A stretch of DNA of 64,000 bases. It comes from a virus. Position numbers and translations under genes: made by a program. The DNA is taken from the IMG/VR virus record IMGVR_UViG_3300027852_000036; one strand, given 5' to 3'. Positions within the stretch are counted from its first letter, which is position 1; every line of letters starts with the position of its first letter. Of the stretch, positions 13,684-49,219 are shown in pieces. The notes under the pieces were generated by a model. The model did not search any database. It saw nothing but the letters and a program-made list of their open reading frames with translations, and was not told the origin of the DNA.

Positions 13684-13698
13684 AGAGGCTCCTTAGGG

Positions 13699-18304: not shown

Positions 18305-18492
18305 AATATTGCCTCTGTATGTAGGGTGTAATAATATCAAAAGCACGGAAGAGTGCCAATACCTTTTAGTTATAAGAAATAAAATTCATAGGGCCTATGC
18401 ACTTCGACAAACGTAATTATGCTTTCCAGACGTAAAAAACGCATAGGCCCTCACAGACCTATGCGTTTGTTGTATGCGTTTGTTGTATGCAG

Positions 18493-20799: not shown

Positions 20800-20837
20800 C
20801 CTGTACTCCGTTTGTGTATGGTGTAATAATAGCACAA

Positions 20838-21914
20838 CTAATCGGATGTGCAAGCAGTATCTGAAAAATATCTTTCTAGCGGGATTCTTAGGCTGGACTC
20901 TATTCTGTCCACTCCCATCGCTTCCTCAGCCTGAAAACTCAAGCTCCAAAAGTCAAGGATATTATCAAAGTAGGTAGGTACCTTCTTGTCAGCCAAGTAC
21001 CTAAGTCTGGCCACTGCCCCAGATACAGAACTATCTAGGGAGGCCCAATTGTCAGAAAAACACCAAGCCCCACCCTTCTTACTATTACTAGGTATGAAGC
21101 AACGCTCGACGTAAGAATCCCAATCCCACAGGTTAGGATCACTCAGCCCAACTGTCTCAGCGTCAATCATAGGTATACCGGCGTCTATTCCGTGATTAAT
21201 GAGACTCTTCCCAATATCAGGTACCTCACTCTCAAGATGCTCAGCCAGTTTTTTAAGGTTTGCTATCTTCATTAGATCCGGCACTTTCCGAACCTTTCCA
21301 AGCTTCGTTCCTAACGTCTTTATGTACCTCGCCTGCAATGTCCTGCAATATTCAGGCATTGCTCCAAATGACAACACCTGCCCACGTAATATGTCTAACT
21401 CCTCTTTGGTACCGGGCTCAGCGGCCTTGCGAAGGTCTTCTTGAAAAGGTGTTATAGGGCCACCAGCAACGGGATTCCCTCCCTTAATCATTAGCCAGCT
21501 GTCGAATTGCCTTCTGTGTATAAAAAACTTAGGTACCTTCTTGTCGATAGCTAAAAGTATCCGTAACCCGGCTCCTAGCCTAGAAGTGTCCTCGCCGTCC
21601 CAATTGAAACACCACTCATAGTCACTAAAGCTACCTAGGTCAGTATGCTTGAAAAAGCAACGCCGAGCATAGGAGTCCCAATCCCAATAAGCGGGGTCAG
21701 CATGTAAACCAGTTTCACTCGTCAGTAGAGGTATTCCAGCTTCGGGGCCATAAAACAGTGCACTAGGTTTTTCTGAAGTTTCTGAACGCAGCGAGTCTTT
21801 CTCGCAGTACTGCCCAATATCCGAGTGTCCTGAAGCCTCAGCTAGGCCGATTAGATGCTTAGCCAACTTACGTAGGTTCCCAACCCTGAAGCCGTTAAAA
21901 ATGCTCATAGCCAC
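20838..21914 (-). CDS. Protein with two tandem degenerate family A domains
   Basis: Twice NLxKLAxHL...G..AGIP...W..DWDSY..RCF...WCF..W...D....GA..R...L.DKKVP. Confidence 0.7.
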   Translation of the reverse strand: MAMSIFNGFRVGNLRKLAKHLIGLAEASGHSDIGQYCEKDSLRSETSEKPSALFYGPEAGIPLLTSETGLHADPAYWDWDSYARRCFFKHTDLGSFSDYEWCFNWDGEDTSRLGAGLRILLAIDKKVPKFFIHRRQFDSWLMIKGGNPVAGGPITPFQEDLRKAAEPGTKEELDILRGQVLSFGAMPEYCRTLQARYIKTLGTKLGKVRKVPDLMKIANLKKLAEHLESEVPDIGKSLINHGIDAGIPMIDAETVGLSDPNLWDWDSYVERCFIPSNSKKGGAWCFSDNWASLDSSVSGAVARLRYLADKKVPTYFDNILDFWSLSFQAEEAMGVDRIESSLRIPLERYFSDTACTSD

Positions 21915-22060
21915 TACCTCGTCATTTCGTCTATATATGCGTCCCTAGTCATATGGCCGGAAACGTTCTCATTGTGTACGTCTAGCGCGACATCAACGGA
22001 GACATTATAGAGCACTATGGCTGCTAACGCTACTAATATTAAAACTTTTAAATTGCTCAT
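21914..22060 (-). CDS. Small N-terminally hydrophobic protein, paralog of 17403-17531
   Basis: MSNLKVLILVALAAIVLYNVSVDVAL...; TTGGCA-N17-TATTAT promoter and GGAG RBS. Confidence 0.65.
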   Translation of the reverse strand: MSNLKVLILVALAAIVLYNVSVDVALDVHNENVSGHMTRDAYIDEMTR

Positions 22061-22337
22061 GGTCGTCTCCGTTTGTGTATGGTGTAATAATAGCAAAACT
22101 AGCGAGGAGTGCCAATACCGTTTGGTTATAATAAACCCCTATCTTACGTCCATACACTTGAGTCCGAAGTGCATATGTTTCAAGTGCATATGCGCTTCGC
22201 CGCGCCGATTTTACAGGAAAACAGGAGAAAAGTCAAGGACTTCCAGACGAATGGTCATAGCTCATTTATTCACACTAATGGTTGACATTAGGTACCTAAA
22301 TACGTATAGTGTAGCTTGAACTGAGAGGAATACAGCG

Positions 22338-26758: not shown

Positions 26759-26767
26759 ACAAATTAA

Positions 26768-26834
26768 ACCCGCCTAGTGCGGGTTTTTTATTGCCTCGAA
26801 TTCGAGACACAAAAAAGCCGCAATTAAGCGGCTA
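26768..26834. terminator. Back-to-back terminators at a convergent junction
   Basis: Plus strand CCCGC-CTAGT-GCGGG-TTTTTT; minus strand GCCGC-TTAATT-GCGGC-TTTTTT. Confidence 0.85.
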
Positions 26835-27041
26835 AGGGTGGTTATTCCATTCTACATCATAATTACCTATCTTATCTACTAAAGGCATTAGGGAGGGGTA
26901 ATACTTCTCTATGTTAACTACGAAAAACACTCCTCCGGAATTCATAACCACCATGTCCTTCTTAGAAGGCTTGTAACGTTTCCCAGCCTTACTAGGGTCT
27001 GGGTTATCTTTACTATAGAAAATCTTAAACTTTTTCCTCAT
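26832..27041 (-). CDS. Hypothetical protein
   Basis: 69-aa ORF, last gene of a leftward unit. Confidence 0.6.
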   Translation of the reverse strand: MRKKFKIFYSKDNPDPSKAGKRYKPSKKDMVVMNSGGVFFVVNIEKYYPSLMPLVDKIGNYDVEWNNHP

Positions 27042-27050
27042 TGTAATACC

Positions 27051-27437
27051 CTATCTAGTTGAGAATGGTTCTAGTATGTCCTGTAATTCTTGTAATAGTT
27101 TTGTTTGCTCTCGCTGTAGTTGGCTAAGCCTAACTACGATGTTCTCTCCTCTAGAGTAGTTTATTGATTCGGCCGATCTTATTAGGATATGGTCGTTGTC
27201 TTCTCCTACGAAGTATTTGCACGTTTCCTTGATTATTTCGTAGACTGTATCAGTATCATCTGATAGTTCCTGTAGTTGTGTAGCGATCTTTTCCTCACTG
27301 CTTGGTGAATGTAGCATATGTATAGCCATTATCGGCCAGAGTTTATAAATAAGCGCTAATCTCTCAGATACGTTGCCCACTCCTAGCTGTAGTGATAGTT
27401 CGTCTGATATGTGCTGAATTATTTGTTGGTTGTTCAT
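27051..27437 (-). CDS. Family C helical hypothetical protein
   Basis: KLWPIMAIH resembles SLWPAISDH of 26036; coiled-coil C-terminus. Confidence 0.65.
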   Translation of the reverse strand: MNNQQIIQHISDELSLQLGVGNVSERLALIYKLWPIMAIHMLHSPSSEEKIATQLQELSDDTDTVYEIIKETCKYFVGEDNDHILIRSAESINYSRGENIVVRLSQLQREQTKLLQELQDILEPFSTR

Positions 27438-28793: not shown

Positions 28794-28799
28794 TTTCTT

Positions 28800-28864
28800 T
28801 TCCTTTAATTCTCGATTTCAGAATATATTATACTCAATTAAGCTATGATTGTAAAGAATTAAAA
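28800..28864 (-). promoter_or_regulatory. Cassette copy 1: early promoter plus leader/RBS (no terminator)
   Basis: TTTACA (28855-28850)-N17-TATAAT (28832-28827), leader TGAAATCGAGAATTAAAGGAAAA. Confidence 0.9.
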
Positions 28865-28885
28865 TCATATTCACTTGTTTCTCCT

Positions 28886-29311
28886 TTAAATTATGTAGTC
28901 TTCAAATTCTTCTGAGTACGTGTAGGTTGCCTCTCGGCTAAAGAACCCTACGCTATCAAAGTCGTTGGGAACTCCTCGATCTAGCATATAAAGAATGCGC
29001 TTAGCAGCTCCGTGTGCCGTATCATCTACCTCCGACCAACTACTTGAGAAACACCACTCCCACTCTCGTGCGTATATACCTTTGATAAACACTCGCTCAG
29101 AGTAGTCAGGCCAGTACTCTCCTACCTCTATTGGAATTCCTGCGTAAGGCCCATGACCTACAGCACATGCCGTAGTTCCGCACTCATGTCTAGTGATGGG
29201 GGCGAATCTACTTTCTCTATCTTGACTGTAGTTATACATTCCGAAGTGACCATACCCTTCTGGTAGCCCGCTCAAATAGTAAGCTAATGTCGTAAGATTT
29301 TCAATGTTCAT
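28886..29311 (-). CDS. Family A protein, tandem copy 1
   Basis: 141 aa; CGTTACAVGHGPYAGIP; AAGGAG RBS. Confidence 0.8.
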   Translation of the reverse strand: MNIENLTTLAYYLSGLPEGYGHFGMYNYSQDRESRFAPITRHECGTTACAVGHGPYAGIPIEVGEYWPDYSERVFIKGIYAREWEWCFSSSWSEVDDTAHGAAKRILYMLDRGVPNDFDSVGFFSREATYTYSEEFEDYII

Positions 29312-29322
29312 TTGTTTCTCCT

Positions 29323-29748
29323 TTAAATTATGTAGTCTTCAAATTCTTCTGAGTACGTGTAGGTTGCCTCTAGTCCAGAGAACTCTCCGCCCTCAAAGTC
29401 GTTGGGAACTCCTCGATCTAGCATATAAAGAATGCGTTTAGCAGCCCCGTGTGCCGTATCATCTACCCCTACCCAACTACCAGAAAAACACCACTTCCAC
29501 TGTCGTGTATATCGGTCTTTAATAAACACTCGCTCAGAGTAGTCAGACCAGCGCTCTCCTTTGTTTATTGGAATTCCTGCGTAAGGCCCATGACCTACAG
29601 CACATGCCGTAGTTCCGCACTTGTATCTAGTGATGGAGTCGAATCTACTTTCTCTATCTTGATTGTAGCTATACATTCCGAAGTGACCATACCCTTCTGG
29701 TAGCCCGCTCAAATAGTAAGCTAATGTCGTAAGATTTTCAATGTTCAT
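29323..29748 (-). CDS. Family A protein, tandem copy 2
   Basis: 141 aa; 116/141 identical to copy 1. Confidence 0.8.
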   Translation of the reverse strand: MNIENLTTLAYYLSGLPEGYGHFGMYSYNQDRESRFDSITRYKCGTTACAVGHGPYAGIPINKGERWSDYSERVFIKDRYTRQWKWCFSGSWVGVDDTAHGAAKRILYMLDRGVPNDFEGGEFSGLEATYTYSEEFEDYII

Positions 29749-29975
29749 TCCGTCTCCTCCAGGAATTTAGCAATGTGGTCTAGGGACAGGCCTTCGTCGT
29801 CCTTCCTAATTACGATGCCGTTCTCTAGCTGTACTTGATCGCCTCCCTCAAAACCGTAAAATACGTCCCAATCTATGTATCCTTCCATATCTTCGATAGG
29901 TAGGAACATTAGCCCATCTGGTAAACTGTCCGAATAATCAGCTAATATTCTCAAGTTCTGTCTGTGTAGTTTCAC
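29745..29975 (-). CDS. Acidic hypothetical protein with a family A-like N-terminus
   Basis: NLRILADYSDSLPDG resembles NLxxLAxYLxxLPEG. Confidence 0.6.
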   Translation of the reverse strand: MKLHRQNLRILADYSDSLPDGLMFLPIEDMEGYIDWDVFYGFEGGDQVQLENGIVIRKDDEGLSLDHIAKFLEETE

Positions 29976-29980
29976 TTGTT

Positions 29981-30071
29981 TTTCCTTTAATTCTCGATTT
30001 CAGAATATATTATACTCAATTAAGCTGTGATTGTAAAGAATTAAAACACAAAAAACCCGCAATTAAGCGGG
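29981..30071 (-). promoter_or_regulatory. Cassette copy 2: terminator + early promoter + RBS
   Basis: CCCGCTTAATTGCGGG-TTTTTT, then TTTACA-N17-TATAAT and AAGGAAAA. Confidence 0.9.
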
Positions 30072-30656
30072 TTTGACTCTATTAAATTCTTTTTCTGTGT
30101 AGTGGTTTCCTTGTAAATACCAGTATAAATTACCGGAGTTTGTACTTACTGCTGGGCCATCTGTTCGGTGTATCAAACCTTTTCTATAGTACATAAAACC
30201 TCCGCCCTTATAGGTTACAGCAGGGCCGTATGCGCAATGTATTTTACCTTTCCTATAGCGGTAGCACGCTCCTTGTGGGTTAAAGATAGCGGGGCCTTTC
30301 TTACGGTGCAGTTTGCCCTTACGGTAGTATCTCTCGTATCCACTAGTCTGAACAACCGCAGGACCGTCCTTACGGTGTAGCTTACCCTTACGATAGTACT
30401 TAACGTACTCGCCTGTGCAAACAGCTGAGCCACCTTTGCGATGCAATCTATCATCCTTATACCAAGCATAAGCTCCGCTAGGATACTCTATCGCAGGCCC
30501 ATCTAGGCGGTGCAGTTTTCCATACTTATACCAATACTTTATCCCATCAGCTGTAATTACAGCAGGGCCATTCGGATTATGTAATACACCTTTTAGCATC
30601 CATTTAACGCTACCATCGTTACCGACCTTTACAGTGTACTCATCGTATGTAGTCAC
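30063..30656 (-). CDS. Family B LHRxDGPA-repeat protein (7 repeats)
   Basis: About 23-aa repeats; ends WYLQGNHYTEKEF. Confidence 0.75.
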   Translation of the reverse strand: MTTYDEYTVKVGNDGSVKWMLKGVLHNPNGPAVITADGIKYWYKYGKLHRLDGPAIEYPSGAYAWYKDDRLHRKGGSAVCTGEYVKYYRKGKLHRKDGPAVVQTSGYERYYRKGKLHRKKGPAIFNPQGACYRYRKGKIHCAYGPAVTYKGGGFMYYRKGLIHRTDGPAVSTNSGNLYWYLQGNHYTEKEFNRVKPA

Positions 30657-30901
30657 TTTGAGCCTCTATATATGTTAATACTATTGTCTGCACTAGCTTC
30701 TAGATCTTCTAGCCGTGTTACAAGTCCCAGAGTCACGCCACAGTCTAAGGCGTATAGTTCATGCACTACAGCTAGAGCCCTTACCAAGGCGTCTGTAGTA
30801 TCTTGGTCACTAGCTAGACCTAGTGACCCCTTAAGTCCCTGCAAAGATGTGTTATCTTTTAACTTTGCGCATACTGCTTCTGCAATATCAAGTCTGTTCA
30901 T
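30653..30901 (-). CDS. Hypothetical protein
   Basis: 82 aa, first gene after cassette 3. Confidence 0.6.
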   Translation of the reverse strand: MNRLDIAEAVCAKLKDNTSLQGLKGSLGLASDQDTTDALVRALAVVHELYALDCGVTLGLVTRLEDLEASADNSINIYRGSK

Positions 30902-30907
30902 TTACTT

Positions 30908-30998
30908 TTTCCTTTAATTCTCGATTTCAGAATATATTATACTCAATTAAGTTGTGATTGTAAAGAATTAAAACACAAAAAACCCGCAATTAAGCGGG
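30908..30998 (-). promoter_or_regulatory. Cassette copy 3: terminator + early promoter + RBS
   Basis: Near-identical to copy 2. Confidence 0.9.
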
Positions 30999-31289
30999 GT
31001 ATTTTTGATAGAACTCTTCTTTTGTGTATTGCTTATCTTCAACCCAATACTCTTCTACATTTGGCCCTTTAACAGCTGGGCCGTCTAGCCTATGTAGTTG
31101 GTCGTGCATCAACCACATCTTCGTACCATCTGCTAGAACAATGGCTGCCCCTTCGGGGTTATGCTTCTTCCCGTTAAGGAACCAATACTTAGAACCACTA
31201 TTCGTTACAGCGGCAGGCCCGCCCTTTCGATGCAGTTGGTTTTGCTTATTGAGCCAGAAAGTGCCATTGGCCTTACGCCTCTTAGCCAC
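30990..31289 (-). CDS. Family B LHRxDGPA-repeat protein (3 repeats)
   Basis: LHRKGGPAA, HNPEGAAI, LHRLDGPAV. Confidence 0.75.
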   Translation of the reverse strand: MAKRRKANGTFWLNKQNQLHRKGGPAAVTNSGSKYWFLNGKKHNPEGAAIVLADGTKMWLMHDQLHRLDGPAVKGPNVEEYWVEDKQYTKEEFYQKYPA

Positions 31290-31427
31290 CTAGAGTGCTC
31301 CCATTTCTTTTATCAACTTATCCTGTTTTTTAATATGCTCCCTCTGACTCTGTACTAACTGTATCAGTGATACTATCAGCGGACTAGCCGTATGTCTCTT
31401 TAGCAACCTTTCTAGTAAATTATCCAT
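31290..31427 (-). CDS. Small coiled-coil hypothetical protein
   Basis: Likely start MDNLLERL at 31427, coupled to the upstream ORF. Confidence 0.5.
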   Translation of the reverse strand: MDNLLERLLKRHTASPLIVSLIQLVQSQREHIKKQDKLIKEMGAL

Positions 31428-31593
31428 TGCACAACTCCAGCTCTGATAACCACTCCGATAATAAGTACTCAAGTTCTTCCACTACTATAGAGGTCTCACA
31501 CAGCTCCTCCTCTAGTTGCGTCCTACGCCTAGTCTGCGACTCAATATCTTCAATTAACTTAGTTACTTTAATTTCTATCTGTTCCCTATTCAT
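31420..31593 (-). CDS. Small acidic coiled-coil protein (57 aa), not in the ORF track
   Basis: Hand-translated MNREQIEIKVTKLIEDIESQ...LELCNG; its ATG overlaps the upstream stop. Confidence 0.55.
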   Translation of the reverse strand: MNREQIEIKVTKLIEDIESQTRRRTQLEEELCETSIVVEELEYLLSEWLSELELCNG

Positions 31594-32069
31594 GCTAGAT
31601 TGCCTTTGCTTGTATAAACGCGACCATACGCGATTTTGTAATGTGAATCAATGTCCTCAAAGTCTTCAGGATACTGGTATTTTGAAAAACTTAAATCATC
31701 CTCTAGGAAGTTCGCTGGAATGCCTTTAACGACCATGTACAGAATGCGCTTAGCTGCCCCGTGCGGAGTATCGTCTATACTGGCCCATCCTGGGGAAAAA
31801 CACCACTCCCATTCAGGAGATAAGCTATAGCTAATGAAATTCCTAGCTGAGTATATGATCCAAGGCTCGTCTGGTTTTGAGGGGATGCCTGCAAAAGGCC
31901 CATGCCCGATAGCGTCCCCACACGTACCATAAAACTCATCTAGACTAGCTGGGCAGTATTCCTTGAAAGCTGGGTGACTATTGTAGCAAGACATGTCAAA
32001 GTACATACATGCGTCATCTAGCTTCAGTAAGTAGTTTGCTAGTTTTAGTAAGTTATGTTCGTTAACCAT
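31590..32069 (-). CDS. Family A protein
   Basis: NLLKLANYLLKL...FDMSCY...CGDAIGHGPFAGIP...WCFSPGWASIDDTPHGAAKRI. Confidence 0.75.
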   Translation of the reverse strand: MVNEHNLLKLANYLLKLDDACMYFDMSCYNSHPAFKEYCPASLDEFYGTCGDAIGHGPFAGIPSKPDEPWIIYSARNFISYSLSPEWEWCFSPGWASIDDTPHGAAKRILYMVVKGIPANFLEDDLSFSKYQYPEDFEDIDSHYKIAYGRVYTSKGNLA

Positions 32070-32446
32070 CGTGTTCTCCCTAAGTCCTTTCTGTAGAAAA
32101 TACGAATCTTTATCTCGTATATAAGCCTACAACTCTCTACTCCGTTTAAGAAATACCTAGCCGGTGCCGCATTGGTGCGGGGAATAGCCGGGCCACCTAC
32201 TCTATGTAGTAATCCCTCCCTATACCACATAGTATCTCCATGTATATTAGTAACAGCCGGCCCCTCTACCCTATGTAGCCTACCTTTGTGATACCACTCC
32301 TCTACCTCTATACTAACTACCGCAGGGCCGTCATCTCTGTGAAGCCTGCCGCCTAGGTAGTGTCTATCACAACTATACTTACCTGCTTCGTCTCGCAACA
32401 CTTCCGCCCTAGAACCTAAAGATTCGTCTATTTCACTAGTGGTCAT
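32045..32446 (-). CDS. Family B LHRxDGPA-repeat protein (3 repeats)
   Basis: LHRDDGPAV, LHRVEGPAV, LHRVGGPAI. Confidence 0.75.
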   Translation of the reverse strand: MTTSEIDESLGSRAEVLRDEAGKYSCDRHYLGGRLHRDDGPAVVSIEVEEWYHKGRLHRVEGPAVTNIHGDTMWYREGLLHRVGGPAIPRTNAAPARYFLNGVESCRLIYEIKIRIFYRKDLGRTRWLTNITY

Positions 32447-32868
32447 TGTGAGCCCCTAGAGCAGATTACCATATCATCACCTACGAAACGAACTCGAACT
32501 CTTGGTTTGCTGGCACGCTTGAAATCTTCTTCAGTGTACCTAACGCCCCTTATATAGTAACGTTCGTGACCATTAAAGCTGCAAGCTGGGCCATCTAGTC
32601 GATGGCGAAGTCCGTCCTCTATATAGGAGAAACTACCATGAGGAGATTCAACCGCTGGGCCACCTATTCGATGAGCGACATCTTTGTAGTACCACTCTGT
32701 AACCCCTCCAACATACTCAACTGCTGGGCCACCTGCTCTGCTAAGCTGACCGTGGATATAATACTTCCTAGTACCTTGTGAAGTAATATAGGCCGGCCCA
32801 TCTGGGTTATGTAGCCTACCTTCATCATCGTACCATCTGATACCGTATACATCATTAACTATCTTCAT
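32443..32868 (-). CDS. Family B LHRxDGPA-repeat protein (4 repeats)
   Basis: LHNPDGPAY, LSRAGGPAV, HRIGGPAV, HRLDGPAC. Confidence 0.75.
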   Translation of the reverse strand: MKIVNDVYGIRWYDDEGRLHNPDGPAYITSQGTRKYYIHGQLSRAGGPAVEYVGGVTEWYYKDVAHRIGGPAVESPHGSFSYIEDGLRHRLDGPACSFNGHERYYIRGVRYTEEDFKRASKPRVRVRFVGDDMVICSRGSQ

Positions 32869-33260
32869 TTTTGTAGGGCTCCTAATATTTCTACGAAAGT
32901 GTTCAAGTCCTTTTCTTCCCTAATTTTCCTCTTAGCATTTTTTTGCTCATTATGCCTCTTGCTCAGCTCGTCCCACACACTAGTAGATGCGTTCTCACAG
33001 AATCCTGTTGAGCTACTTCTCAGAATTGCCGCTTGCGTATTAGCGTACCAGAAGTCTATAGTACAGGTGCTATACTTAACCTCACATATAGGAGGCGGAC
33101 AAGGTGTTCTACCTCCTGAGCTCCGCTTAATTGCCGCTAAAGTGTATTCTCCTCCAATGTCGATTACTAGTACTGAGCTATTGGGACGAAAGACCTCTTC
33201 TGAGCTACGTACTAGCTTCAACACACTAAATAGTGCTACTGTTACATCTGATTGATTCAT
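32865..33260 (-). CDS. Family D hypothetical protein
   Basis: LxLxxSSEEVxxP...VLVI...LAAI...DFWY shared with the two adjacent ORFs. Confidence 0.7.
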   Translation of the reverse strand: MNQSDVTVALFSVLKLVRSSEEVFRPNSSVLVIDIGGEYTLAAIKRSSGGRTPCPPPICEVKYSTCTIDFWYANTQAAILRSSSTGFCENASTSVWDELSKRHNEQKNAKRKIREEKDLNTFVEILGALQK

Positions 33261-33261
33261 T

Positions 33262-33678
33262 CTAGTAACCTCTTATAATCATTGATAAGTTGCGAAGGTT
33301 TTCTTCTTGCTCCTTCCTGTTTTTAGCGGCAATTAAGTCCTTTTTTCGACCTGAAAATGCCTTACCTATAACTCTGGAGTCGCCCTTATTAAACCCTGCT
33401 GACTTGCTCTGTATTGCTGCAGTAGTACAGTGGTAATACCAGAAGTCTAAGCTATCTGTGCTGCGTACTATACGATACTCGTTGCGACTGGGACTGCCTC
33501 TATTAATAGTAGTAATAGCCGCTAGAACATGGCTGCGGTCTAGTTGGATGACTAATACGCCTGCCTTAGGGCTCAACACTTCTTCCGAACTACTTATCAA
33601 CTGTAAAACCTCGTCCCTTAACTCTTTTGAATAAGATTGTTTCATTTGAATATCCTGTAAGTTGTGTTCGTCAATCAT
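33262..33678 (-). CDS. Family D hypothetical protein
   Basis: QSYSKELRDEVLQLISSSEEVLSP; ends RGY. Confidence 0.7.
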   Translation of the reverse strand: MIDEHNLQDIQMKQSYSKELRDEVLQLISSSEEVLSPKAGVLVIQLDRSHVLAAITTINRGSPSRNEYRIVRSTDSLDFWYYHCTTAAIQSKSAGFNKGDSRVIGKAFSGRKKDLIAAKNRKEQEENLRNLSMIIRGY

Positions 33679-33679
33679 T

Positions 33680-34051
33680 CTAGTAACCTCTCAAAGTGTC
33701 TGAAAATAGGCGAAGACTCGACTCTCGATCCTTTTCGTTTTTTTCGGCAGCTAAGTACTTTCTTCTGTATAAAAGCGCTTTACCTATACATAGAGAGTCG
33801 CCTGTATCAAACCCTGTCAACTCGCTATTACCTAGTGCATCATCCAATTTACACTCCCAGAAGTCTAAACTATCAGGACTATATACGATTTTGAAGCTAT
33901 CTGAAAAATAAGCACAGCGTATAGCTGCTAAAGTGAGTTCACCACTTAGTTTGATGACAAATACCCTCGCTCTAGGACTAAGAACCTTTTCCGCGCTACT
34001 TATCAACTGCAAAACCTCGTCCCTTAACTCTTTTGAATAAGATTGATTCAT
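33680..34051 (-). CDS. Family D hypothetical protein
   Basis: MNQSYSKELRDEVLQLISSAEKVLSP; ends DTLRGY. Confidence 0.7.
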   Translation of the reverse strand: MNQSYSKELRDEVLQLISSAEKVLSPRARVFVIKLSGELTLAAIRCAYFSDSFKIVYSPDSLDFWECKLDDALGNSELTGFDTGDSLCIGKALLYRRKYLAAEKNEKDRESSLRLFSDTLRGY

Positions 34052-34052
34052 T

Positions 34053-34478
34053 CTAGTAACCCCTCAAAGTGTCGCCATCTGTGTAAATACTTTTCTCGTA
34101 ACTGCGGTATTGTTTGAAATACGCTGGAACTCCGCGATCTAACATATACTGAATTCGTTTAGCTGCCCCGTGAGGAGTATTGTCTACTTTAGCCCAGGTA
34201 GCAGAGAAACACCATACCCACTCATCTGATCCTCTGTCTGTGACAAAACATCTACTAGAGTAGTCTTCGAAATCTTCTCCGTCATGTAGTGGAATCCCGG
34301 CGTAAGGGCCATGACCTACCGCGCAGGCGGCTGTTCGGCAATGGCCGTATGTTTCAACTGTATCGCCTGACATATCGTCATCATTGAATACGCTCATTTC
34401 AAAGTGTTCGTAGTCTTCTGGAAGTTCGCTAAGGTAGCGAACTAATGTCTTTAGGTTGGCTGTTTGTAGGTTAGTCAT
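34053..34478 (-). CDS. Family A protein
   Basis: CRTAACAVGHGPYAGIP...WCFSATWAKVDNTPHGAAKRI; ends DTLRGY. Confidence 0.75.
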   Translation of the reverse strand: MTNLQTANLKTLVRYLSELPEDYEHFEMSVFNDDDMSGDTVETYGHCRTAACAVGHGPYAGIPLHDGEDFEDYSSRCFVTDRGSDEWVWCFSATWAKVDNTPHGAAKRIQYMLDRGVPAYFKQYRSYEKSIYTDGDTLRGY

Positions 34479-34483
34479 TTGAT

Positions 34484-34573
34484 TTTCCTTTAATTCTCGA
34501 TTTCAGAATATATTATACTCAATTAAGCTGTGATTGTAAAGAATTAAAACACAAAAACCCGCAATTAAGCGGG
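34484..34573 (-). promoter_or_regulatory. Cassette copy 4: terminator + early promoter + RBS
   Basis: Near-identical to copy 2. Confidence 0.9.
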
Positions 34574-34579
34574 TTATAA

Positions 34580-35026
34580 TTACCACCACAGGTTCTGGAA
34601 GTATTTGCCAAACATATCAAAGCCGTACTGAACCTGTTCCCGAAAATCATCCACCCTAGCCTTGTATGCCCCATACTCCTCTTCATCTGTAACTTCTAGC
34701 TTCATTGAGGTACTTCCACAGTCTAATAAAGTCTCTGTAGACTCTAGTAATCCCTCAGGTAGTTCCTCCTCCCTAGTTTTCGGATTAAATGAGAAGATCA
34801 TAGCATCTAGGATCTCATGCCACTCCTTAAGGCCCCTAGCATGAATCTCTGGGTCACTTTTTGTAGGGTCTTCTAGCAGGCATCCTGGGAAGCCCCCACA
34901 GTTATCGTCACTAAGTAGTGCCTCTTTGAATTTGACTAGTCCTGCATAGATGATCGGCTTGAGCGTCTCATCTAGGCTGAAGGTGTCTTTGTAGTTAAAA
35001 ATAGGTTTCTTACCTTTGAATCTCAT
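34580..35026 (-). CDS. Conserved phage-type hypothetical protein
   Basis: 148 aa; sole gene between cassettes 5 and 4; WHEILDAMIFSF...GFDMFGKYFQNLWW. Confidence 0.7.
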   Translation of the reverse strand: MRFKGKKPIFNYKDTFSLDETLKPIIYAGLVKFKEALLSDDNCGGFPGCLLEDPTKSDPEIHARGLKEWHEILDAMIFSFNPKTREEELPEGLLESTETLLDCGSTSMKLEVTDEEEYGAYKARVDDFREQVQYGFDMFGKYFQNLWW

Positions 35027-35029
35027 TGT

Positions 35030-35112
35030 TTTTCCTCGATTTCAGAATATATTATACTAAATTAAGCTGTGATTGTAAAGAATTAAAACACAAAAACCCG
35101 CAATTAAGCGGG
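35030..35112 (-). promoter_or_regulatory. Cassette copy 5: terminator + early promoter + RBS
   Basis: Same elements with a shortened leader (GAAATCGAGGAAAAAC). Confidence 0.9.
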
Positions 35113-35118
35113 TTATTT

Positions 35119-35658
35119 TTAAAGCTGAATCCATCTACCTTTATTGGTATATACCGCATGTAGGTCTGAAGCCCTACCGCAGTGATCTACGAGTTGGAAC
35201 ATAGACATATTCCAGCCTTTAGCCACCCTCGTTATGAACTTCTTAAGTACGTCACCCGATACGTCTTTACCTTCTTGGTGGTACCTTATCAACATATTCA
35301 TGTTAGAGCACTCGCCAGCATGTCTAGACGTATTTATCCGGTCAGACTCAATCTGGTAGTCCTGAAGGGTTCTGTCAGATTTAAGAATGTTCACACACCC
35401 TGAGTACATAGTTCGTATATTGGAGTAGGACTGAACCCCTCGCCACACTAGGAACCCAGTGATAGTGTCCCTAGCGGTATGGTCTTCTCTGCCCATCTCT
35501 ATAAACTCTACTAGGTTATTACACACTCCAGACAGGTGAGCCCTAGGTAAAGTCTCTAAGGTATCTGCATTAGGTAAATCCTTTAAGGTACTAGATTCCG
35601 CCCTATATACTGTTGCTATTAATAGCACTGAAATGATTATAACTGCTAGTTTACGCAT
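35119..35658 (-). CDS. Putative exported protein with two related Cys-containing halves
   Basis: Signal-like MRKLAVIIISVLLIATVYRA; HLSGVCNNL and HAGECSNM segments. Confidence 0.6.
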   Translation of the reverse strand: MRKLAVIIISVLLIATVYRAESSTLKDLPNADTLETLPRAHLSGVCNNLVEFIEMGREDHTARDTITGFLVWRGVQSYSNIRTMYSGCVNILKSDRTLQDYQIESDRINTSRHAGECSNMNMLIRYHQEGKDVSGDVLKKFITRVAKGWNMSMFQLVDHCGRASDLHAVYTNKGRWIQL

Positions 35659-36211
35659 TTCGCTTACCTACTATAATGTTGAACTGTTCTTCCGATAGCC
35701 GTTTTCCAGCTATGAACCACTGCTTCTTTCCACAAGCAGTTACGATTGCAGGGCCCTCTAAGTTGTGTAGTTTACCGTGCCGGTACCACATACTGGATTT
35801 ACCTGGAATATACACCGCTGGACGGTTTTTAGCGTGTAATTTGCCTCCGTACTTATGGTATATCGAATCATTAGGCCCCTCTATAGTAACGTACCGTTTA
35901 GGCTTTTTAGGGGAAATATCTGCTAAAATCAAATCTAGGCGATTGTCTGGAACCGACCCTCTAGCGATACCTCCCGCTGTCCAACAATGAGGCTCAAAGT
36001 TGCCACACGGGAGCCTCACGGCTCCATGTATCGGCCAATCTTGGCCGGGATACACTTCATATACCACCACCTTACAACCCGACCTAGTCTTCTTGATTAT
36101 ATACTTCATAAACTCTAAACTAGAAATGCCCATATTAAACTCCGTCTGTATTACTAAACCATTTAATCTCGCGACCATGCGCGATCTCAAACATAAGTAC
36201 CAACTCGTCAA
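35651..36211 (-). CDS. Hypothetical N-terminal domain fused to family B repeats; start uncertain
   Basis: C-terminal LHAKNRPAV, LHNLEGPAI, WFIAGKRLSEEQF. Confidence 0.65.
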   Translation of the reverse strand: MTSWYLCLRSRMVARLNGLVIQTEFNMGISSLEFMKYIIKKTRSGCKVVVYEVYPGQDWPIHGAVRLPCGNFEPHCWTAGGIARGSVPDNRLDLILADISPKKPKRYVTIEGPNDSIYHKYGGKLHAKNRPAVYIPGKSSMWYRHGKLHNLEGPAIVTACGKKQWFIAGKRLSEEQFNIIVGKRNA

Positions 36212-36449
36212 GAGGTAGAACCTTCTTAGACTCGTATTTTGTTAGGAACTTGGCGAAAGCCTTCCAGTCATCGGAATTCATTATAGCTACGCCGTGTTCT
36301 ACTCCATAAGGGGTGCCGTCATATACATCAACACGACCCCCTGACCAATCATATCCGTTCTTTGCAAGCCACTTTCTATCTAATGGCCCTGTCCAATTAA
36401 GAAAGTAGCTGACCATTTTAGCCTCCAAATAGTGCGTTACAGGCCGCAT
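36135..36449 (-). CDS. Hypothetical protein; start uncertain
   Basis: ORF in a tightly packed leftward unit. Confidence 0.55.
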   Translation of the reverse strand: MRPVTHYLEAKMVSYFLNWTGPLDRKWLAKNGYDWSGGRVDVYDGTPYGVEHGVAIMNSDDWKAFAKFLTKYESKKVLPLDELVLMFEIAHGREIKWFSNTDGV

Positions 36450-36714
36450 AGACCCCGAAAAAGATCCCGCCCAGTATTGCTATGTTAAAAGCATTTGAAG
36501 CTGCCGAGTTCTTCTGACCAGAACCACCGTGCTGCAGGTAGGTTTCATTCTCTACAAGAGGAGCACCTCCGAGAGACTGCCTAGATACGTGGAATGATGC
36601 CATCACAGTATCTAGTTCCTCACACTGCTTGGGTGGTAAATGTTCCCGAGCTTGGTTTGTAATATAGTATAAAACCAGCTCTGTATTATGTACTCGTTTC
36701 TCTAAGTTACTCAT
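36418..36714 (-). CDS. Hypothetical protein with a C-terminal transmembrane segment
   Basis: Ends AFNIAILGGIFFGVYAACNALFGG. Confidence 0.6.
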   Translation of the reverse strand: MSNLEKRVHNTELVLYYITNQAREHLPPKQCEELDTVMASFHVSRQSLGGAPLVENETYLQHGGSGQKNSAASNAFNIAILGGIFFGVYAACNALFGG

Positions 36715-36988
36715 TATCTTCTCCTGGTGCTTTCACGTCTCTGTTTCGGTAGTATTCCGTTAGTGCGTCAATAAGTTCGTCCCTACGCGCGTCTAGCTCT
36801 CGGATCATATCCTGAATAGCTCGATCAGCGGTATCTGGTTCGAAGGTTCCTTTTAAGGGGTTAAGAACTATGTCGTCACTAGACAGATACGTTCCATCCC
36901 TAACAGCTTTCAGCTCATCTAGCAACTCTTTACGCTGCTCATGGAACGCTTCTGTAATATTCTCCCGTAGGTGTCGTTTGTTAGTCAT
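36707..36988 (-). CDS. Hypothetical protein
   Basis: 93 aa, overlapping start/stop with its neighbour. Confidence 0.6.
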   Translation of the reverse strand: MTNKRHLRENITEAFHEQRKELLDELKAVRDGTYLSSDDIVLNPLKGTFEPDTADRAIQDMIRELDARRDELIDALTEYYRNRDVKAPGEDNE

Positions 36989-36989
36989 C

Positions 36990-37094
36990 TTACATCACCT
37001 GCAAACTAATACCGCATAGATATAGCGCAGCAAAAAAGCTACCCGCGAACATTACTGTAAGCCCTACAATCATTAACTTATCTTTAATACTCAT
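36990..37094 (-). CDS. 34-aa membrane peptide, first gene after cassette 6
   Basis: Hand-translated MSIKDKLMIVGLTVMFAGSFFAALYLCGISLQVM; AAGGA RBS. Confidence 0.55.
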   Translation of the reverse strand: MSIKDKLMIVGLTVMFAGSFFAALYLCGISLQVM

Positions 37095-37110
37095 TGTAAA
37101 TTTCCTTGTT

Positions 37111-37164
37111 TTCTCGATTTCAGATTATATTATACTCAATTAAGCTAATATTGTAAAGAATTAA
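37111..37164 (-). promoter_or_regulatory. Cassette copy 6: early promoter only
   Basis: TTTACA-N17-TATAAT followed by CTGAAATCGAGAA. Confidence 0.85.
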
Positions 37165-37168
37165 TTAA

Positions 37169-37618
37169 CTAAATCCTACATTTAACATCATAATCAACTA
37201 TGTCTAGCGTGTTAATAGCCCATTTTGAATCGACCATGAGCGCTCCAGCCTCTAGCCTTACAGGCAGCTCCTTGAGAATCCCAATGTAAGCTGTGCTAGT
37301 AGGCTTCATATAGTAATAGCCTTGTGCTATTGTGGTAGTAAACCCGTCCATAAGTAGGGTTGGCCGAATACACAGGTGTTTGTCGCCACTATTGACGAGC
37401 CGTACCTCGTATCCGGATACCTCTACATCGGTACCACCTAGCCCCGGAATGGGACCTGCGTCAAAGTACCGGGAGTGTACGAATACTTCGTGCTCCTGGT
37501 CGTACGCAGCAAGTATCCAATCATCTGCAATGTAATGTACATCGCGTAAGGGGGACTGCGAACAGCCTATACATCCAAGTATAGGCAGCATGCATAGATA
37601 TTTGTAGACCTTATTCAT
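37169..37618 (-). CDS. Putative lipoprotein
   Basis: MNKVYKYLCMLPILGCIGCSQ: basic N-region, hydrophobic core and lipobox-like IGC. Confidence 0.6.
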   Translation of the reverse strand: MNKVYKYLCMLPILGCIGCSQSPLRDVHYIADDWILAAYDQEHEVFVHSRYFDAGPIPGLGGTDVEVSGYEVRLVNSGDKHLCIRPTLLMDGFTTTIAQGYYYMKPTSTAYIGILKELPVRLEAGALMVDSKWAINTLDIVDYDVKCRI

Positions 37619-38555
37619 CCTCTTCTTCGATACCACAGGCAGCCTTCTCAGCATCAGTACCTGCACGCTTAACAGCCTCACGGACAGCTTTCTTACTGCA
37701 CATCAAAGATAACGCAATCTCTGACCGGTTAGCGTTGTGTAAAAGTCGGCTATCCTTACGAATAACGCAATCTTTATCACTCCAAGTAGTTCCGATGGAT
37801 AGTCCAATAGTAATACCCTGACCACCTACGCTAGTACTGCCCATACAGGTATCATCTGAAGCTACCAGTGGGGCAGCCCATGTGGTACTTACTGGGTTAC
37901 GTTTCTGAGCCTCGTATCGACTGTTGTCTGTAAAGTTAACACTGTTGTCGCTAGTACCAGAAAGCTCTTTAGCTTCTTCAGCACTTAGACCGTTATTAAT
38001 TACAACAGCCCCGCTACCCATAACATCACCTGAAACACCTGTGACAGATCCTACGCTAGAATTACTACCAGAAGAGCTACTGGTTGAGCTATTATTGTCA
38101 CTAGAGCTATTGGACTTACTATTAGTCTTGCTGTTGTTATTAGCCGTAGTCTTGCTGTTGTTATTAGCCGTAGTCTTGCTGTTGTTATTAGCCGTAGTCT
38201 TGCTGTTGTTATTAGCCGTAGTCTTGCTGTTGTTATTAGCCGTAGTCTTGCTGTTGTTATGGCTAGCAGTAGTATTGCTATTAGTGTTAGTCCCATTAAC
38301 GGTGCCAGTATTAGTGCCGTTAGTAGTACCTGTTAGGATACCTGAAACAGTGCCGGTGTTAGTACCAGTGTTGTTCCCTGGGTTATTGGTAGAACTATTA
38401 CCGCCACTATTGTTGCTGCCTGAGTTAGAGTTGGCATTTGGGTTTGGGTTAGTGTTAGTATTGGGAGTATTCCCGTTACCGCTATTTGTAAGTGCAGGCG
38501 TCGCAGTCATAGCTAGTACTACCGCTGCTACGGCCAGTTTAATCTTTAAATTCAT
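37611..38555 (-). CDS. Secreted Asn/Ser/Thr-rich protein with NNNSKTTA tandem repeats and a Cys-rich C-terminal domain
   Basis: Signal peptide MNLKIKLAVAAVVLAMTATPALT; 24-bp tandem repeat at about 38120-38260; C-terminal DTCMGS...DCVIRK...LMC. Confidence 0.75.
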   Translation of the reverse strand: MNLKIKLAVAAVVLAMTATPALTNSGNGNTPNTNTNPNPNANSNSGSNNSGGNSSTNNPGNNTGTNTGTVSGILTGTTNGTNTGTVNGTNTNSNTTASHNNSKTTANNNSKTTANNNSKTTANNNSKTTANNNSKTTANNNSKTNSKSNSSSDNNSSTSSSSGSNSSVGSVTGVSGDVMGSGAVVINNGLSAEEAKELSGTSDNSVNFTDNSRYEAQKRNPVSTTWAAPLVASDDTCMGSTSVGGQGITIGLSIGTTWSDKDCVIRKDSRLLHNANRSEIALSLMCSKKAVREAVKRAGTDAEKAACGIEEEDE

Positions 38556-38564
38556 CTTCTAGTC

Positions 38565-38846
38565 CTAAGTTGATTGATCGAATTGTTTAATGGTCTTATA
38601 CGCATAATCTAAGCAGTCTTGTACTGTGGTGTGGCTCATTTCAGCCTGCAGTATGCACTCGATCAGTAAGCTACCTAAATTGTACTTTACACCGTCTTGG
38701 TTGTTTATCTCTACCTCTCTCCACAACTCTGTAACGTGCTGAGTTATGTACTTGAGTCGCTCTCTGCGGCTACCATGCGCAGTCGCAGATATTTCAGGGT
38801 GTGCTAATACTAACTCCTGAAGGTCTTCCCAGCTTCTACGGGGCAT
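38565..38846 (-). CDS. Hypothetical protein
   Basis: 93-aa ORF. Confidence 0.6.
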   Translation of the reverse strand: MPRRSWEDLQELVLAHPEISATAHGSRRERLKYITQHVTELWREVEINNQDGVKYNLGSLLIECILQAEMSHTTVQDCLDYAYKTIKQFDQST

Positions 38847-39108
38847 TGTGTGCTCCTACTTTACTGATATAAAAGTCTACCTTCTCTACCGAGCATTTAC
38901 GAATAAGAGGGGTAAGTAGGTCAACCTCTTCGTGAAATTCCATAGTAGGTTTATCCCGTATATCTAGGATGTGTATGCAGTACGTCGCGGTACCCGGCTC
39001 TTTATCTAAGTAGATAGAGTAGCCGTTATTGAACTGAATCTCTACTGTAGTGCCTGTTTCACGTATGTTGTTGTCTTTGCGGTATTTGTCAGAAGTTAGG
39101 TTAATCAT
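38836..39108 (-). CDS. Hypothetical protein
   Basis: 90 aa, first gene after the degenerate cassette promoter. Confidence 0.6.
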   Translation of the reverse strand: MINLTSDKYRKDNNIRETGTTVEIQFNNGYSIYLDKEPGTATYCIHILDIRDKPTMEFHEEVDLLTPLIRKCSVEKVDFYISKVGAHNAP

Positions 39109-39114
39109 GTCAGT

Positions 39115-39174
39115 TTTTCCTTGATTTCAGATTCTATTATAGCGCATTGGGCGGCTTTTGTAAAGTTTTATTTC
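39115..39174 (-). promoter_or_regulatory. Cassette copy 7 (degenerate early promoter)
   Basis: TTTACA-N17-TATAAT followed by CTGAAATCAAGGAAAAAC. Confidence 0.75.
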
Positions 39175-41345: not shown

Positions 41346-41374
41346 TCTTTACAAAAGGTTGTTATAGTAGTATA
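41346..41374 (+). promoter_or_regulatory. Early promoter for the thyA operon
   Basis: TTTACA-N17-TATAAT. Confidence 0.8.
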
Positions 41375-41418
41375 ATATATATTCAAACTTAAAACATAAC
41401 TAGACTAACGGGTAAATA

Positions 41419-44156: not shown

Positions 44157-44220
44157 AATAAAACTTTACAATAGGTGGTTAATTGCCGTATAATAGTCAT
44201 TGATTAATTGAGGAAAGCAT

Positions 44221-49132: not shown

Positions 49133-49219
49133 GTACAGGAAAAGTAATTCTTTACAAAAGCTGCCCAATCAAGTATAATATACATTCAAATCGAGAAATA
49201 AACCAAAGAGGAAAACAAC

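What the first reader, a model, noticed from the sequence alone, without database searches (positions are those of the whole stretch)
28800..39174. Modular array of repeated terminator-promoter-RBS cassettes partitioning the accessory region
Seen: an approximately 90-bp element (CCCGCTTAATTGCGGG-T6 terminator, TTTACA-N17-TATAAT, leader TGAAATCGAGAATTAAAGGAAAA) recurs almost identically at 29981, 30908, 34484 and 35030. Promoter-only versions occur at 28800 and 37111, and a degenerate one at 39115. All face the same way and separate blocks of 1-9 small genes. Established: identical regulatory repeats can mediate homologous shuffling of gene modules, as the early-promoter stem-loop cassettes of T4-type phages do. 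Inference: an integron-like, recombinase-free cassette system in a T5-like phage that lets self-contained expression units be deleted, duplicated or swapped; the paralog content of the units fits this.
Basis: partly seen in the sequence, partly recalled or inferred. Interest (0 to 1): 0.75.

Follow-up and report, generated by a model that had tools for sequence, protein, structure and literature searches.

The report
Repeated terminator-promoter cassettes shuffling phage genes
A marine T5-like phage starts seven blocks of small unknown early genes with nearly the same terminator-promoter-ribosome-site unit, and two related phages carry different genes right after that unit, as in the known PeSL gene-shuffling cassettes of T4-type phages.

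Summary
Seven minus-strand units (TTTACA-N17-TATAAT plus a shared leader and ribosome site) lie at the stated places. Four carry the same intrinsic terminator, and a fifth, variant terminator closes the array at 26.8 kb. Chance expectation is about zero.

The phage is a distant T5 relative from marine metagenomes (DNA polymerase 47% identical to T5's). The array sits where T5 has its own leftward early promoters, and it shares their design. The promoter cores are 82% alike on average, with four of the copies at least 95% alike pairwise (T5: mean 56%).

Their flanks are 91% and 73% identical to the window, and their cassettes 99-100% and 92%. Homology stops between the ribosome site and the start codon, and unrelated or only distantly related genes follow. 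Contigs of the probable source run also join the cassette to sequence absent from the roughly 72 kb of this genome that I could read.

I read this as PeSL-like regulatory cassettes, a known kind, here in a T5-like phage. "Integron-like" is only a metaphor: no integrase or attC-like site was found. No cassette-to-cassette junction or circle was seen.

This scan has reported PeSL-like cassettes before on other DNA.

The parts
35027..35116 (-). Full cassette c35023: terminator (stem 35095-35114), -35 at 35074-35079, -10 at 35051-35056, short leader and ribosome site before the ATG at 35026. Heads the single-gene block o34580.
34479..34577 (-). Full cassette c34484: terminator (34556-34575), -35 at 34535-34540, -10 at 34512-34517, 23-nt leader and ribosome site. 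Heads a 10-gene block (34478 down to 30990).
30902..30998 (-). Full cassette c30908: terminator (30983-30998, with the stop codon of the upstream MORN-like gene in its loop), -35 at 30959-30964, -10 at 30936-30941, leader. Heads a 2-gene block.
29976..30074 (-). Full cassette c29981: terminator (30053-30074, again with the upstream gene's stop codon in its loop), -35 at 30032-30037, -10 at 30009-30014, leader. Heads a 3-gene block.
28794..28864 (-). Promoter-leader unit c28800 without terminator. It abuts the remnant start of a third family-A gene copy (28865-28885). Heads the last 5-gene block.
37095..37165 (-). Promoter-leader unit c37101 (82% identical to the reference copy) with a decayed hairpin upstream. 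Heads a 6-gene block that begins with a 34-aa membrane micro-ORF (37094-36990).
39109..39172 (-). Degenerate promoter-leader unit c39115. Heads a 4-gene block.
26816..26833 (-). Terminator-only unit. It has the same loop and U-tail, and the outer stem pair is changed on both sides (compensatory). It closes the array, convergent with the plus-strand terminator at 26766-26786.
34580..35026 (-). o34580 (148 aa, PHROG of unknown function): a single gene flanked by two cassettes 82 nt alike with one mismatch. It is replaced by an unrelated gene in relative L173.
30653..30901 (-). o30653 (82 aa ORFan), the first gene after c30908. In relative L090 a short family-A gene sits here instead.
41348..41376 (+). 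Diverged promoter of the same class, heading the plus-strand nucleotide-metabolism and replication genes. Others lie at 44165-44194 and 49151-49179; the last shares the leader motif.

Best explanation
These are PeSL-like regulatory cassettes in the early accessory region of a marine T5-like phage.

What each full unit does (inferred from sequence): a canonical intrinsic terminator (7-8 bp G+C stem, 6-nt loop, U5-6) stops the upstream block. Twelve bases on, an A/T-rich stretch and a near-consensus sigma70 promoter (TTTACA-N17-TATAAT), read by the host RNA polymerase, restart transcription. A roughly 30-nt unstructured A-rich leader with the ribosome site AAAGGA sits 5-8 nt before the start codon. 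The array thus cuts about 14.5 kb into seven insulated early transcription units of 1-10 small ORFan or paralogous genes.

What the sequence identity does (partly shown, partly inferred): four or five units are at least 95% identical over 65-93 nt, far above what promoter function alone requires. They offer direct repeats long enough for general homologous recombination. Related co-occurring phages keep the same cassette while carrying different genes behind it. The cassettes therefore act as shared linkers at which gene modules are replaced, gained or lost. They are kept alike by gene conversion, exchange, or both. No dedicated recombinase is involved.
For: Anatomy. The hairpins fold at -12 to -14 kcal/mol, one pair carries a compensatory change, and the leader is unstructured.

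T5-like identity and position: DNA polymerase 47% identical to T5; Pfam families T5_Terminase_small, Phage_T5_Nicking_endo and T5_p143. In the annotated T5 stretch examined (9-45 kb), about 20 annotated leftward 75-bp early promoters lie between 13 and 45 kb, several abutting terminators. They share the design seen here: A/T block, GCTTAA in the spacer, TATAATATATTC..AAAT..GAG.

Excess identity: core pairwise identity averages 0.82 in the window, with four copies at 0.95 or more. In T5 the mean is 0.56 and the maximum 0.82. None of 111 other phage loci (1.75 Mb) has more than one pair of such dispersed repeats.

The genes behind near-identical cassettes mostly differ (a MORN-like gene, a 76-aa gene, an 82-aa ORFan, a family-A gene, a 148-aa gene), and homology stops at the ribosome site.

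Relatives: L090 has flanks 91.3% identical and a cassette 92/93 identical to the copy at the same position (P = 0.002) and 93/93 to copy c29981. Identity then falls to the level of unrelated sequence (about a quarter of positions matching) and a different gene follows. L173 has flanks 72.7% identical and a cassette 91.7% identical (P = 1e-5). The gene that follows has no homologue in the window.

In the probable source run, four of the six loose contig ends that were listed lie at cassette edges. They lead into sequence absent from the roughly 72 kb of this genome that I could read. One of them is a homologue of L173's replacement gene.

The region is rich in ORFans and recent duplicates.
Against: No junction between two cassettes (deletion, duplication or circle) was seen. 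Only contigs could be laid, and these drop rare variants.

The three near-identical assemblies all have the same gene order.

The comparative evidence rests on two short contigs (1.0 and 1.9 kb), each showing only one side of an exchange.

The cassettes fill the whole intergenic gap. Any gene replacement that survives selection would therefore appear to break at a cassette edge.

Higher conservation of the cassette than of its flanks also fits plain purifying selection on a strong promoter.

At least two or three cassettes (c34484, c29981, and the one in L090) sit before family-A-type genes, so part of the spread may be ordinary duplication of cassette plus gene.

The c28800 junction looks like an illegitimate deletion, not a homologous one.

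In T5 itself the classic st0 deletion used a 10-bp repeat inside ORFs. T5 versus SP15 breakpoints are not clearly tied to promoters (8 of 26 within 100 nt, P = 0.06).
Confidence: 0.6

Rival explanations
1. The units are purely regulatory repeats. They are the phage's early promoters and terminators, copied by recent segmental duplication in a duplication-prone region and held alike by selection for a very strong promoter and leader. Gene replacements break at their edges only because the cassettes fill the intergenic gaps. They play no special part in recombination.
For: The T5 early promoter class has the same conserved design and the same terminator-promoter layout. The paralogs are mostly tandem. 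Cassette plus family-A gene recurs at least twice in the window and once in L090. No cassette-to-cassette junction was seen. T5's st0 deletion and the T5/SP15 indels do not depend on promoters.
Against: Identity is 95-100% even at spacer and inter-element positions that vary freely among T5 promoters. Near-identical cassettes stand before unrelated genes. The cassette is 92-100% conserved against 73-91% flanks in two relatives, with a sharp stop at one and the same point. Perfect direct repeats of 82-93 nt are well above the length that general recombination needs (about 25-50 bp; established knowledge), so exchange is hard to avoid.
Confidence: 0.3
2. A true integron-like or other site-specific system: a dedicated recombinase recognises the hairpin or another site in the cassette and excises or inserts gene units.
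For: The hairpin is conserved and palindromic. The order of elements (hairpin, then promoter) is fixed.
Against: No integrase, serine recombinase, transposase or homing endonuclease family hit any ORF of 150 aa or more that I scanned, nor the precomputed gene tables covering about 72 kb. Each unit has its own promoter, unlike promoterless integron cassettes. The hairpin followed by a U-tract is a textbook terminator. In both relatives homology ends at the ribosome site, not at the hairpin.
Confidence: 0.03
3. A small non-autonomous mobile element (MITE-like) that carries a promoter and terminator and has transposed into intergenic sites.
For: About 90-nt near-identical copies lie in several intergenic sites in front of unrelated genes.
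Against: The alignment of the copies shows no terminal inverted repeats at the unit's ends and no target-site duplications. All copies have one orientation and each sits precisely in front of a start codon. In two copies the terminator overlaps the last codons of the upstream gene. No transposase was found.
Confidence: 0.03
4. An assembly artefact: collapsed or chimeric repeats in a metagenome contig.
For: The source is a metagenome, and Logan contigs break at the cassettes.
Against: The ENA contig, two JGI contigs (one spanning three cassettes) and Logan pieces agree at 99.8-100%. L090 and L173 carry k141 names. By my knowledge of MEGAHIT naming, they were built with 141-mers, longer than the 93-nt repeat, so real reads span each junction.
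Confidence: 0.01

Closest known systems
PeSLs (promoter-early stem-loops) of T4-type phages RB49/phi1, T4/PST and KVP40/nt-1 (Arbiol et al. 2010, PMC2839356; Comeau et al. 2014, PMC4122927)
   Same: A composite of a stem-loop terminator, an A/T-rich stretch and a consensus sigma70 early promoter, in that order. Many well-conserved copies lie in direct orientation. They concentrate in a plastic region of non-essential ORFans. Gene insertion, deletion and replacement between relatives is bounded by the motif. No dedicated recombinase is known.
   Different: The host phage is a T5-like siphovirus, not a T4-like myovirus. There is no sequence homology to PeSLs. The stem is CCCGC/GCGGG rather than polyG/polyC. 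The conserved unit extends through a leader to the ribosome site. Blocks hold up to 10 genes rather than mostly one. Promoter and terminator activity, and mini-circles, were shown by experiment for PeSLs and not here.
Early promoter class of coliphage T5 (annotated in AY543070, with named promoters such as P10a, P11, P13a/b, P14a/b, P15a-c and P-D/E 33)
   Same: The same genome position (leftward early accessory region between the terminal-repeat side and the replication genes). The same design: A/T block, GCTTAA-like spacer element, TATAAT followed by ATATTC..AAAT..GAG, and a short leader to the ribosome site. Several abut rho-independent terminators.
   Different: The T5 copies have drifted apart (mean core identity 0.56, maximum 0.82). 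Their -35 is TTGCTT rather than TTTACA. The known T5 st0 deletion used a 10-bp repeat inside ORFs, not promoters. Here four or five copies are 95-100% alike, including the terminator.
Integron gene cassettes
   Same: A row of small, same-direction accessory gene units that differ between relatives.
   Different: There is no IntI integrase and no attC or attI site. Integron cassettes are promoterless and read from one Pc promoter, whereas here every unit brings its own promoter and terminator.

Membership tests
PeSL-type regulatory cassette | Composite of a sigma70-consensus early promoter and an adjacent stem-loop that can terminate transcription | tested here: met
   Seven promoters match 11 of 12 consensus positions with a 17-nt spacer. 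Four have the identical hairpin plus U-tract 12 nt upstream. The activity itself is inferred.
PeSL-type regulatory cassette | A/T-rich stretch upstream of the -35 element | tested here: met
   TTTTAATTC directly precedes the -35 in six of seven copies.
PeSL-type regulatory cassette | Many well-conserved copies within one genome, concentrated in a plastic region rich in ORFans | tested here: met
   All seven copies lie within 28.8-39.2 kb. The genes there lack a Pfam or PHROG function and include four paralog families.
PeSL-type regulatory cassette | Gene gain, loss or replacement between close relatives bounded by the motif | tested here: met
   L090 and L173: homology ends at the cassette's 3' edge and a different gene follows. 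Only one side of each event is visible, and only two events were found.
PeSL-type regulatory cassette | Recombination between neighbouring copies produces deletions or mini-circles | tested here: inconclusive
   No cassette-to-cassette joint appeared in the contigs of the one run that could be laid. Contigs drop rare variants.
PeSL-type regulatory cassette | Occurs in T4-like myoviruses and is sequence-related to the RB49/phi1 motif | tested here: not met
   The phage is T5-like. The stem is not polyG/polyC. The unit therefore works like a PeSL but is not a homologous member.
T5 early promoter class | Leftward promoters in the early accessory region with a class-specific conserved spacer and downstream sequence | tested here: met
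   The consensus comparison shows shared TATAATAT, AAAT and GAG blocks and the GCTTAA spacer element. The -35 differs (TTTACA versus TTGCTT).
Integron | IntI-type tyrosine recombinase next to the array | tested here: not met
   No recombinase family hit any ORF of 150 aa or more that I scanned, nor the precomputed Pfam tables. ORFs shorter than 150 aa were only partly scanned.
Integron | Promoterless cassettes each ending in an attC recombination site and read from one common promoter | tested here: not met
   Each block has its own promoter. The only hairpin is a terminator with a U-tract.

The most novel reading that the evidence does not exclude
Several co-occurring marine T5-like phage lineages, 73-100% alike in their flanking genes, share one cassette sequence. 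They use it as a common currency for homologous exchange. Single-gene or few-gene modules such as o34580 pop out as cassette-bounded circles and re-enter any other cassette, in the same or another genome. This would be a population-wide, recombinase-free gene-shuffling system in siphoviruses. The cassette is then kept uniform across lineages by that traffic rather than by promoter function.
Probability: 0.3. Interest if true: 0.6.

Novelty: new member of a known kind. Interest (0 to 1): 0.45.

Why it matters
PeSLs were described only in T4-like myoviruses, and the paper library held no paper linking them to T5-like phages. This case puts the same solution in an unrelated phage family. Terminator-promoter units double as homology linkers for swapping small early genes. 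Here they arise from a promoter class that in T5 itself has drifted apart and is not known to do this. That supports the view that homogenised regulatory cassettes are a general, convergent route to plasticity in the early host-takeover regions of large lytic phages. It also names specific modules (o34580; o30653 with o30063) whose gain and loss could be followed in marine samples. Similar arrays have turned up repeatedly in this scan, so the main value is as a further, fairly well documented example rather than a surprise.

Tried and rejected
1. DNA searches for relatives found nothing. Megablast and blastn of the array against 50,697 phage records gave no match. Exact and degenerate promoter patterns gave no match in IMG/VR or the JGI metagenome collection. 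That collection also missed a JGI contig known to hold the motif (L082), so this blank says little.

2. DNA-polymerase relatives in IMG/VR reach at most 68% identity, on a 5.5-kb contig. DUF5675 relatives reach at most 53%, and the 84.6-kb one has no DNA available. These are too distant for breakpoint mapping.

3. Protein searches with o34580 and o30990 returned the window's own proteins and two remote hits in unrelated contexts.

4. The near-identical assemblies L081, L082 and L089 show no structural difference at cassettes.

5. In the one run I could lay, no joint links two cassettes. One weak minor joint (26837 to 27052, depth 2.8, side 29) skips the 69-aa last gene, and I give it no weight. 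Two of the six loose ends that were listed (31427, 36658) are not at cassettes.

6. The whole genome is not held. About 10 kb of the tail-gene end of the 84-kb contig could not be read, so extra cassette copies there are not excluded.

7. Exact look-ups of L090's and L173's own genes found no longer contigs.

8. I tested whether T5-like coliphages in general break at early promoters, comparing T5 with SP15 and with the st0 deletion mutant. There was no clear association.

9. A MITE-like reading was rejected: no terminal inverted repeats and no target duplications.
Full report
**1. Is it there?**

Yes. The 16-nt terminator core occurs four times exactly, at 30056, 30983, 34558 and 35097, all on the minus strand. 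A 2-mismatch copy lies at 26817. Chance would give 0.02 copies. The 23-nt leader occurs four times exactly, with 0 expected. The core made of the -10 hexamer plus the start of the leader occurs seven times without mismatch, with 0.39 expected.

The repeat finder groups six copies into one 85-nt family at 80-100% identity. The alignment adds the degenerate seventh copy at 39115. All seven copies read TTTACA-N17-TATAAT.

The same sequence and order appear in an ENA contig (L081), in two JGI contigs (L082, and L089, which spans three cassettes) and in Logan contigs, at 99.8-100% identity. The array is therefore not an assembly artefact.

**2. Anatomy**

Read on the minus strand, a full unit has these parts in order:
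- a hairpin with a 7-8 bp G+C-rich stem and a 6-nt loop (-12 to -14 kcal/mol), followed by U5-6;
- twelve bases that end in an A/T-rich stretch;
- the -35 element, a 17-nt spacer and the -10 element;
- a leader of about 30 nt with no structure (-2 kcal/mol, z = 0), carrying AAAGGA 5-8 nt before the start codon.

Units c35023, c34484, c30908 and c29981 are complete. Units c28800, c37101 and c39115 lack the hairpin. The piece at 26816-26833 is a hairpin alone, and its outer stem pair is changed on both sides (compensatory). It closes the array against a convergent plus-strand terminator.

In c30908 and c29981 the last codons of the upstream gene (Pro-Ala-stop) lie inside the hairpin.

The blocks between units hold 1, 10, 2, 3 and 5 genes in the core, and 6 and 4 further up.

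**3. Surroundings**

The phage is a distant relative of T5. Its DNA polymerase is 47% identical to T5's. It hits the T5-specific Pfam families for small terminase, nicking endonuclease and p143. It comes from marine metagenomes.

The window runs in this order: late structural genes, then a repeat-rich stretch, then the minus-strand accessory array (26.8-41.3 kb), then plus-strand nucleotide-metabolism and replication genes.

The array genes have no assigned function. They include four paralog families:
- six genes with MORN-like GPA repeats;
- four family-A genes;
- three family-C genes;
- one further pair.

No integrase, transposase or other recombinase family hit any ORF of 150 aa or more that I scanned, nor the precomputed gene tables.

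**4. Comparison with T5 itself**

In the annotated T5 stretch I examined (9-45 kb), about 20 annotated leftward 75-bp early promoters lie between 13 and 45 kb. Several overlap or abut rho-independent terminators.

I aligned them on the -10 hexamer. They share the window's design: an upstream A/T block, a GCTTAA-like element in the spacer, and TATAAT followed by ATATTC..AAAT..GAG and a short leader. The layout of terminator-promoter units partitioning the early accessory region is therefore the ordinary T5-type plan.

What is not ordinary is the uniformity:

| 65-nt promoter core, pairwise identity | Window | T5 |
|---|---|---|
| Mean | 0.82 | 0.56 |
| Highest values | four copies at 0.95 or more | maximum 0.82 |

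The window's spacer and the stretch between terminator and promoter are also identical among copies, although such positions vary freely in T5.

I also ran a self-repeat survey of 111 other phage loci (1.75 Mb, including the T5 early region). None had more than one pair of dispersed 50-250-nt repeats at 88% identity or more. The window has 13 such pairs.

Promoter function alone therefore does not explain the identity. Recent copying, gene conversion or exchange must be added.

**5. What lies behind the cassettes**

Homology among copies stops a few bases before the start codon. The genes that follow are mostly unrelated:
- a MORN-like gene;
- a 76-aa gene whose N-terminus resembles family A;
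- an 82-aa ORFan;
- a family-A gene;
- a 148-aa gene.

A few diagnostic sites make c34484 look like c35023 in its upstream half and like c29981 in its leader. That is what a crossover between cassettes would leave, but the sites are too few for a test.

The single gene o34580 is flanked by 82 nt with one mismatch.

**6.

Look-ups of 90% protein clusters turned up two variant proteins, and these led to two short contigs from related phages.

| Feature | L090 | L173 |
|---|---|---|
| Source and length | 1007 nt, sister ENA sample | 1936 nt, same ENA sample as L081 |
| Flank identity to the window | 91.3% over 611 nt (31613 downward) | 72.7% over 1500 nt (three genes; 89, 64 and 59% at protein level) |
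| Cassette identity | 92/93 to the copy at the same position, c30908 (binomial P = 0.002); 93/93 to c29981 | 77/84 (P = 1e-5) |
| What follows the cassette | Just after AAAGGAAAAA, identity falls to the level of unrelated sequence (about a quarter of positions matching). A 74-aa family-A-type gene and the start of a second one replace o30653 | A gene with no homologue in the window replaces o34580 |

Both contigs carry k141 names. From my knowledge of MEGAHIT naming, this means they were built from 141-mers. These are longer than the repeat, so a chimeric join through the cassette is unlikely.

Independently, I laid the Logan contigs of the one public run that holds the window, which is probably its source. 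Four of the six loose ends that were listed lie at cassette edges (29980, 30045, 30074, 35030). They lead into sequence that is absent from the window and from the extra 8 kb of the genome I could fetch. The loose end at 35030 begins a gene that is a homologue of L173's replacement gene.

So at least two or three related lineages keep the cassette and carry other genes behind it.

**7. Limits**

- No junction between two cassettes, and no circle, was seen. Only contigs could be laid, and these drop rare variants.
- Each relative shows only one side of an exchange.
- The cassette fills the whole intergenic gap, so any surviving replacement would seem to break at its edge.
- Stronger conservation of the cassette than of coding flanks also fits purifying selection.
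- Some of the spread may be duplication of a cassette together with a family-A gene.
- The c28800 unit abuts the first roughly 10 nt of a third family-A copy, which looks like an illegitimate deletion.
- In T5, the classic st0 deletion used a 10-bp repeat inside ORFs.
- T5 versus SP15 breakpoints are only weakly enriched near promoters: 8 of 26 within 100 nt, P = 0.06. The shuffling role is therefore not a general property of T5-type promoters. It goes with their homogenisation in this lineage.

**8. Comparison with the known**

The closest known system is the PeSL of T4-type phages. PeSLs are strong sigma70-like early promoters with an upstream A/T-rich stretch and a stem-loop terminator. They are repeated in hyperplastic regions next to ORFans, they bound the indels between close relatives, and they can form mini-circles (PMC2839356; PMC4122927).

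The array here meets the structural, distributional and comparative features. The mini-circle feature could not be tested. It fails membership by descent: the phage is T5-like and there is no sequence relation. It therefore works like a PeSL and is not a homologous member.

It is not an integron. There is no integrase and no attC site, and every unit has its own promoter.

No paper in the library links PeSLs with T5-like phages. Earlier reports of this scan describe PeSL-like arrays in several other phages and in CPR bacteria. The kind is therefore known and recurrent.

**9. Verdict**

- Observation: confirmed.
- First reading: partly supported. PeSL-like is supported; integron-like is not.
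- Best explanation: insulated early transcription units whose homogenised terminator-promoter-leader cassettes also serve as homology linkers for module exchange among related marine T5-like phages. I put the regulatory part at about 0.9 and the whole statement at about 0.6.
- Novelty: new member of a known kind.
- Interest: 0.45.

Noticed in passing
window 37611-38555 (tandem 24-nt units at 38082-38273): An Asn/Ser/Thr/Gly-rich protein with an N-terminal signal-like segment holds a 24-nt tandem repeat. Its copy number differs between otherwise identical assemblies: 314 aa in the window, 282 aa in L081, 306 aa in L082.
   Followed up: partly
window 30983-30998 and 30056-30071: The stop codon and last two codons (Pro-Ala-stop) of two MORN-like genes lie inside the terminator hairpin. 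The repeated unit there therefore includes the end of a coding sequence, and homology between these two copies runs about 40 nt further into the genes (134 nt at 87%).
   Followed up: partly
window 28865-28885 compared with 29302-29322: After the second tandem family-A gene, the intergenic ribosome site and about 10 nt of a third copy's start survive. They are joined directly to the promoter part of cassette c28800. This is a likely deletion scar that removed the rest of that gene and a terminator.
   Followed up: partly
window 18297-18379, 20806-20840, 22053-22135: A second family of repeated upstream units (69-97% alike) stands in front of minus-strand genes of the 17-22 kb stretch. It is different in sequence from the cassettes studied here and may be another promoter class.
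   Followed up: no
window 26837-27052: A minor contig in the probable source run (depth 2.8 against about 110-130) skips the 69-aa last gene of the array and has 11 other letters in its place. The short side is only 29 nt, so the evidence is weak.
   Followed up: no
window 37094-36990: A 34-aa hydrophobic micro-ORF is the first reading frame after the c37101 promoter. It is called as a gene in the ENA record.
   Followed up: no
window 39109-39172 and 49151-49200: The degenerate unit c39115 and the plus-strand promoter at 49151 share most of their spacer (AAAGC.GCCCAAT) and the leader motif. They form a second subfamily of the same promoter class on opposite strands.
   Followed up: partly
window 52584-53309: A 241-aa protein among the replication genes has a weak match to sigma-70 region 4 and to GcrA. 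It may be a phage transcription factor.
   Followed up: no
L091 (T5 st0, AY692264) 13675-13684: The record annotates the recombination site of the classic T5 st0 deletion as a 10-bp repeat that inactivates two ORFs, so that deletion was not promoter-mediated.
   Followed up: yes
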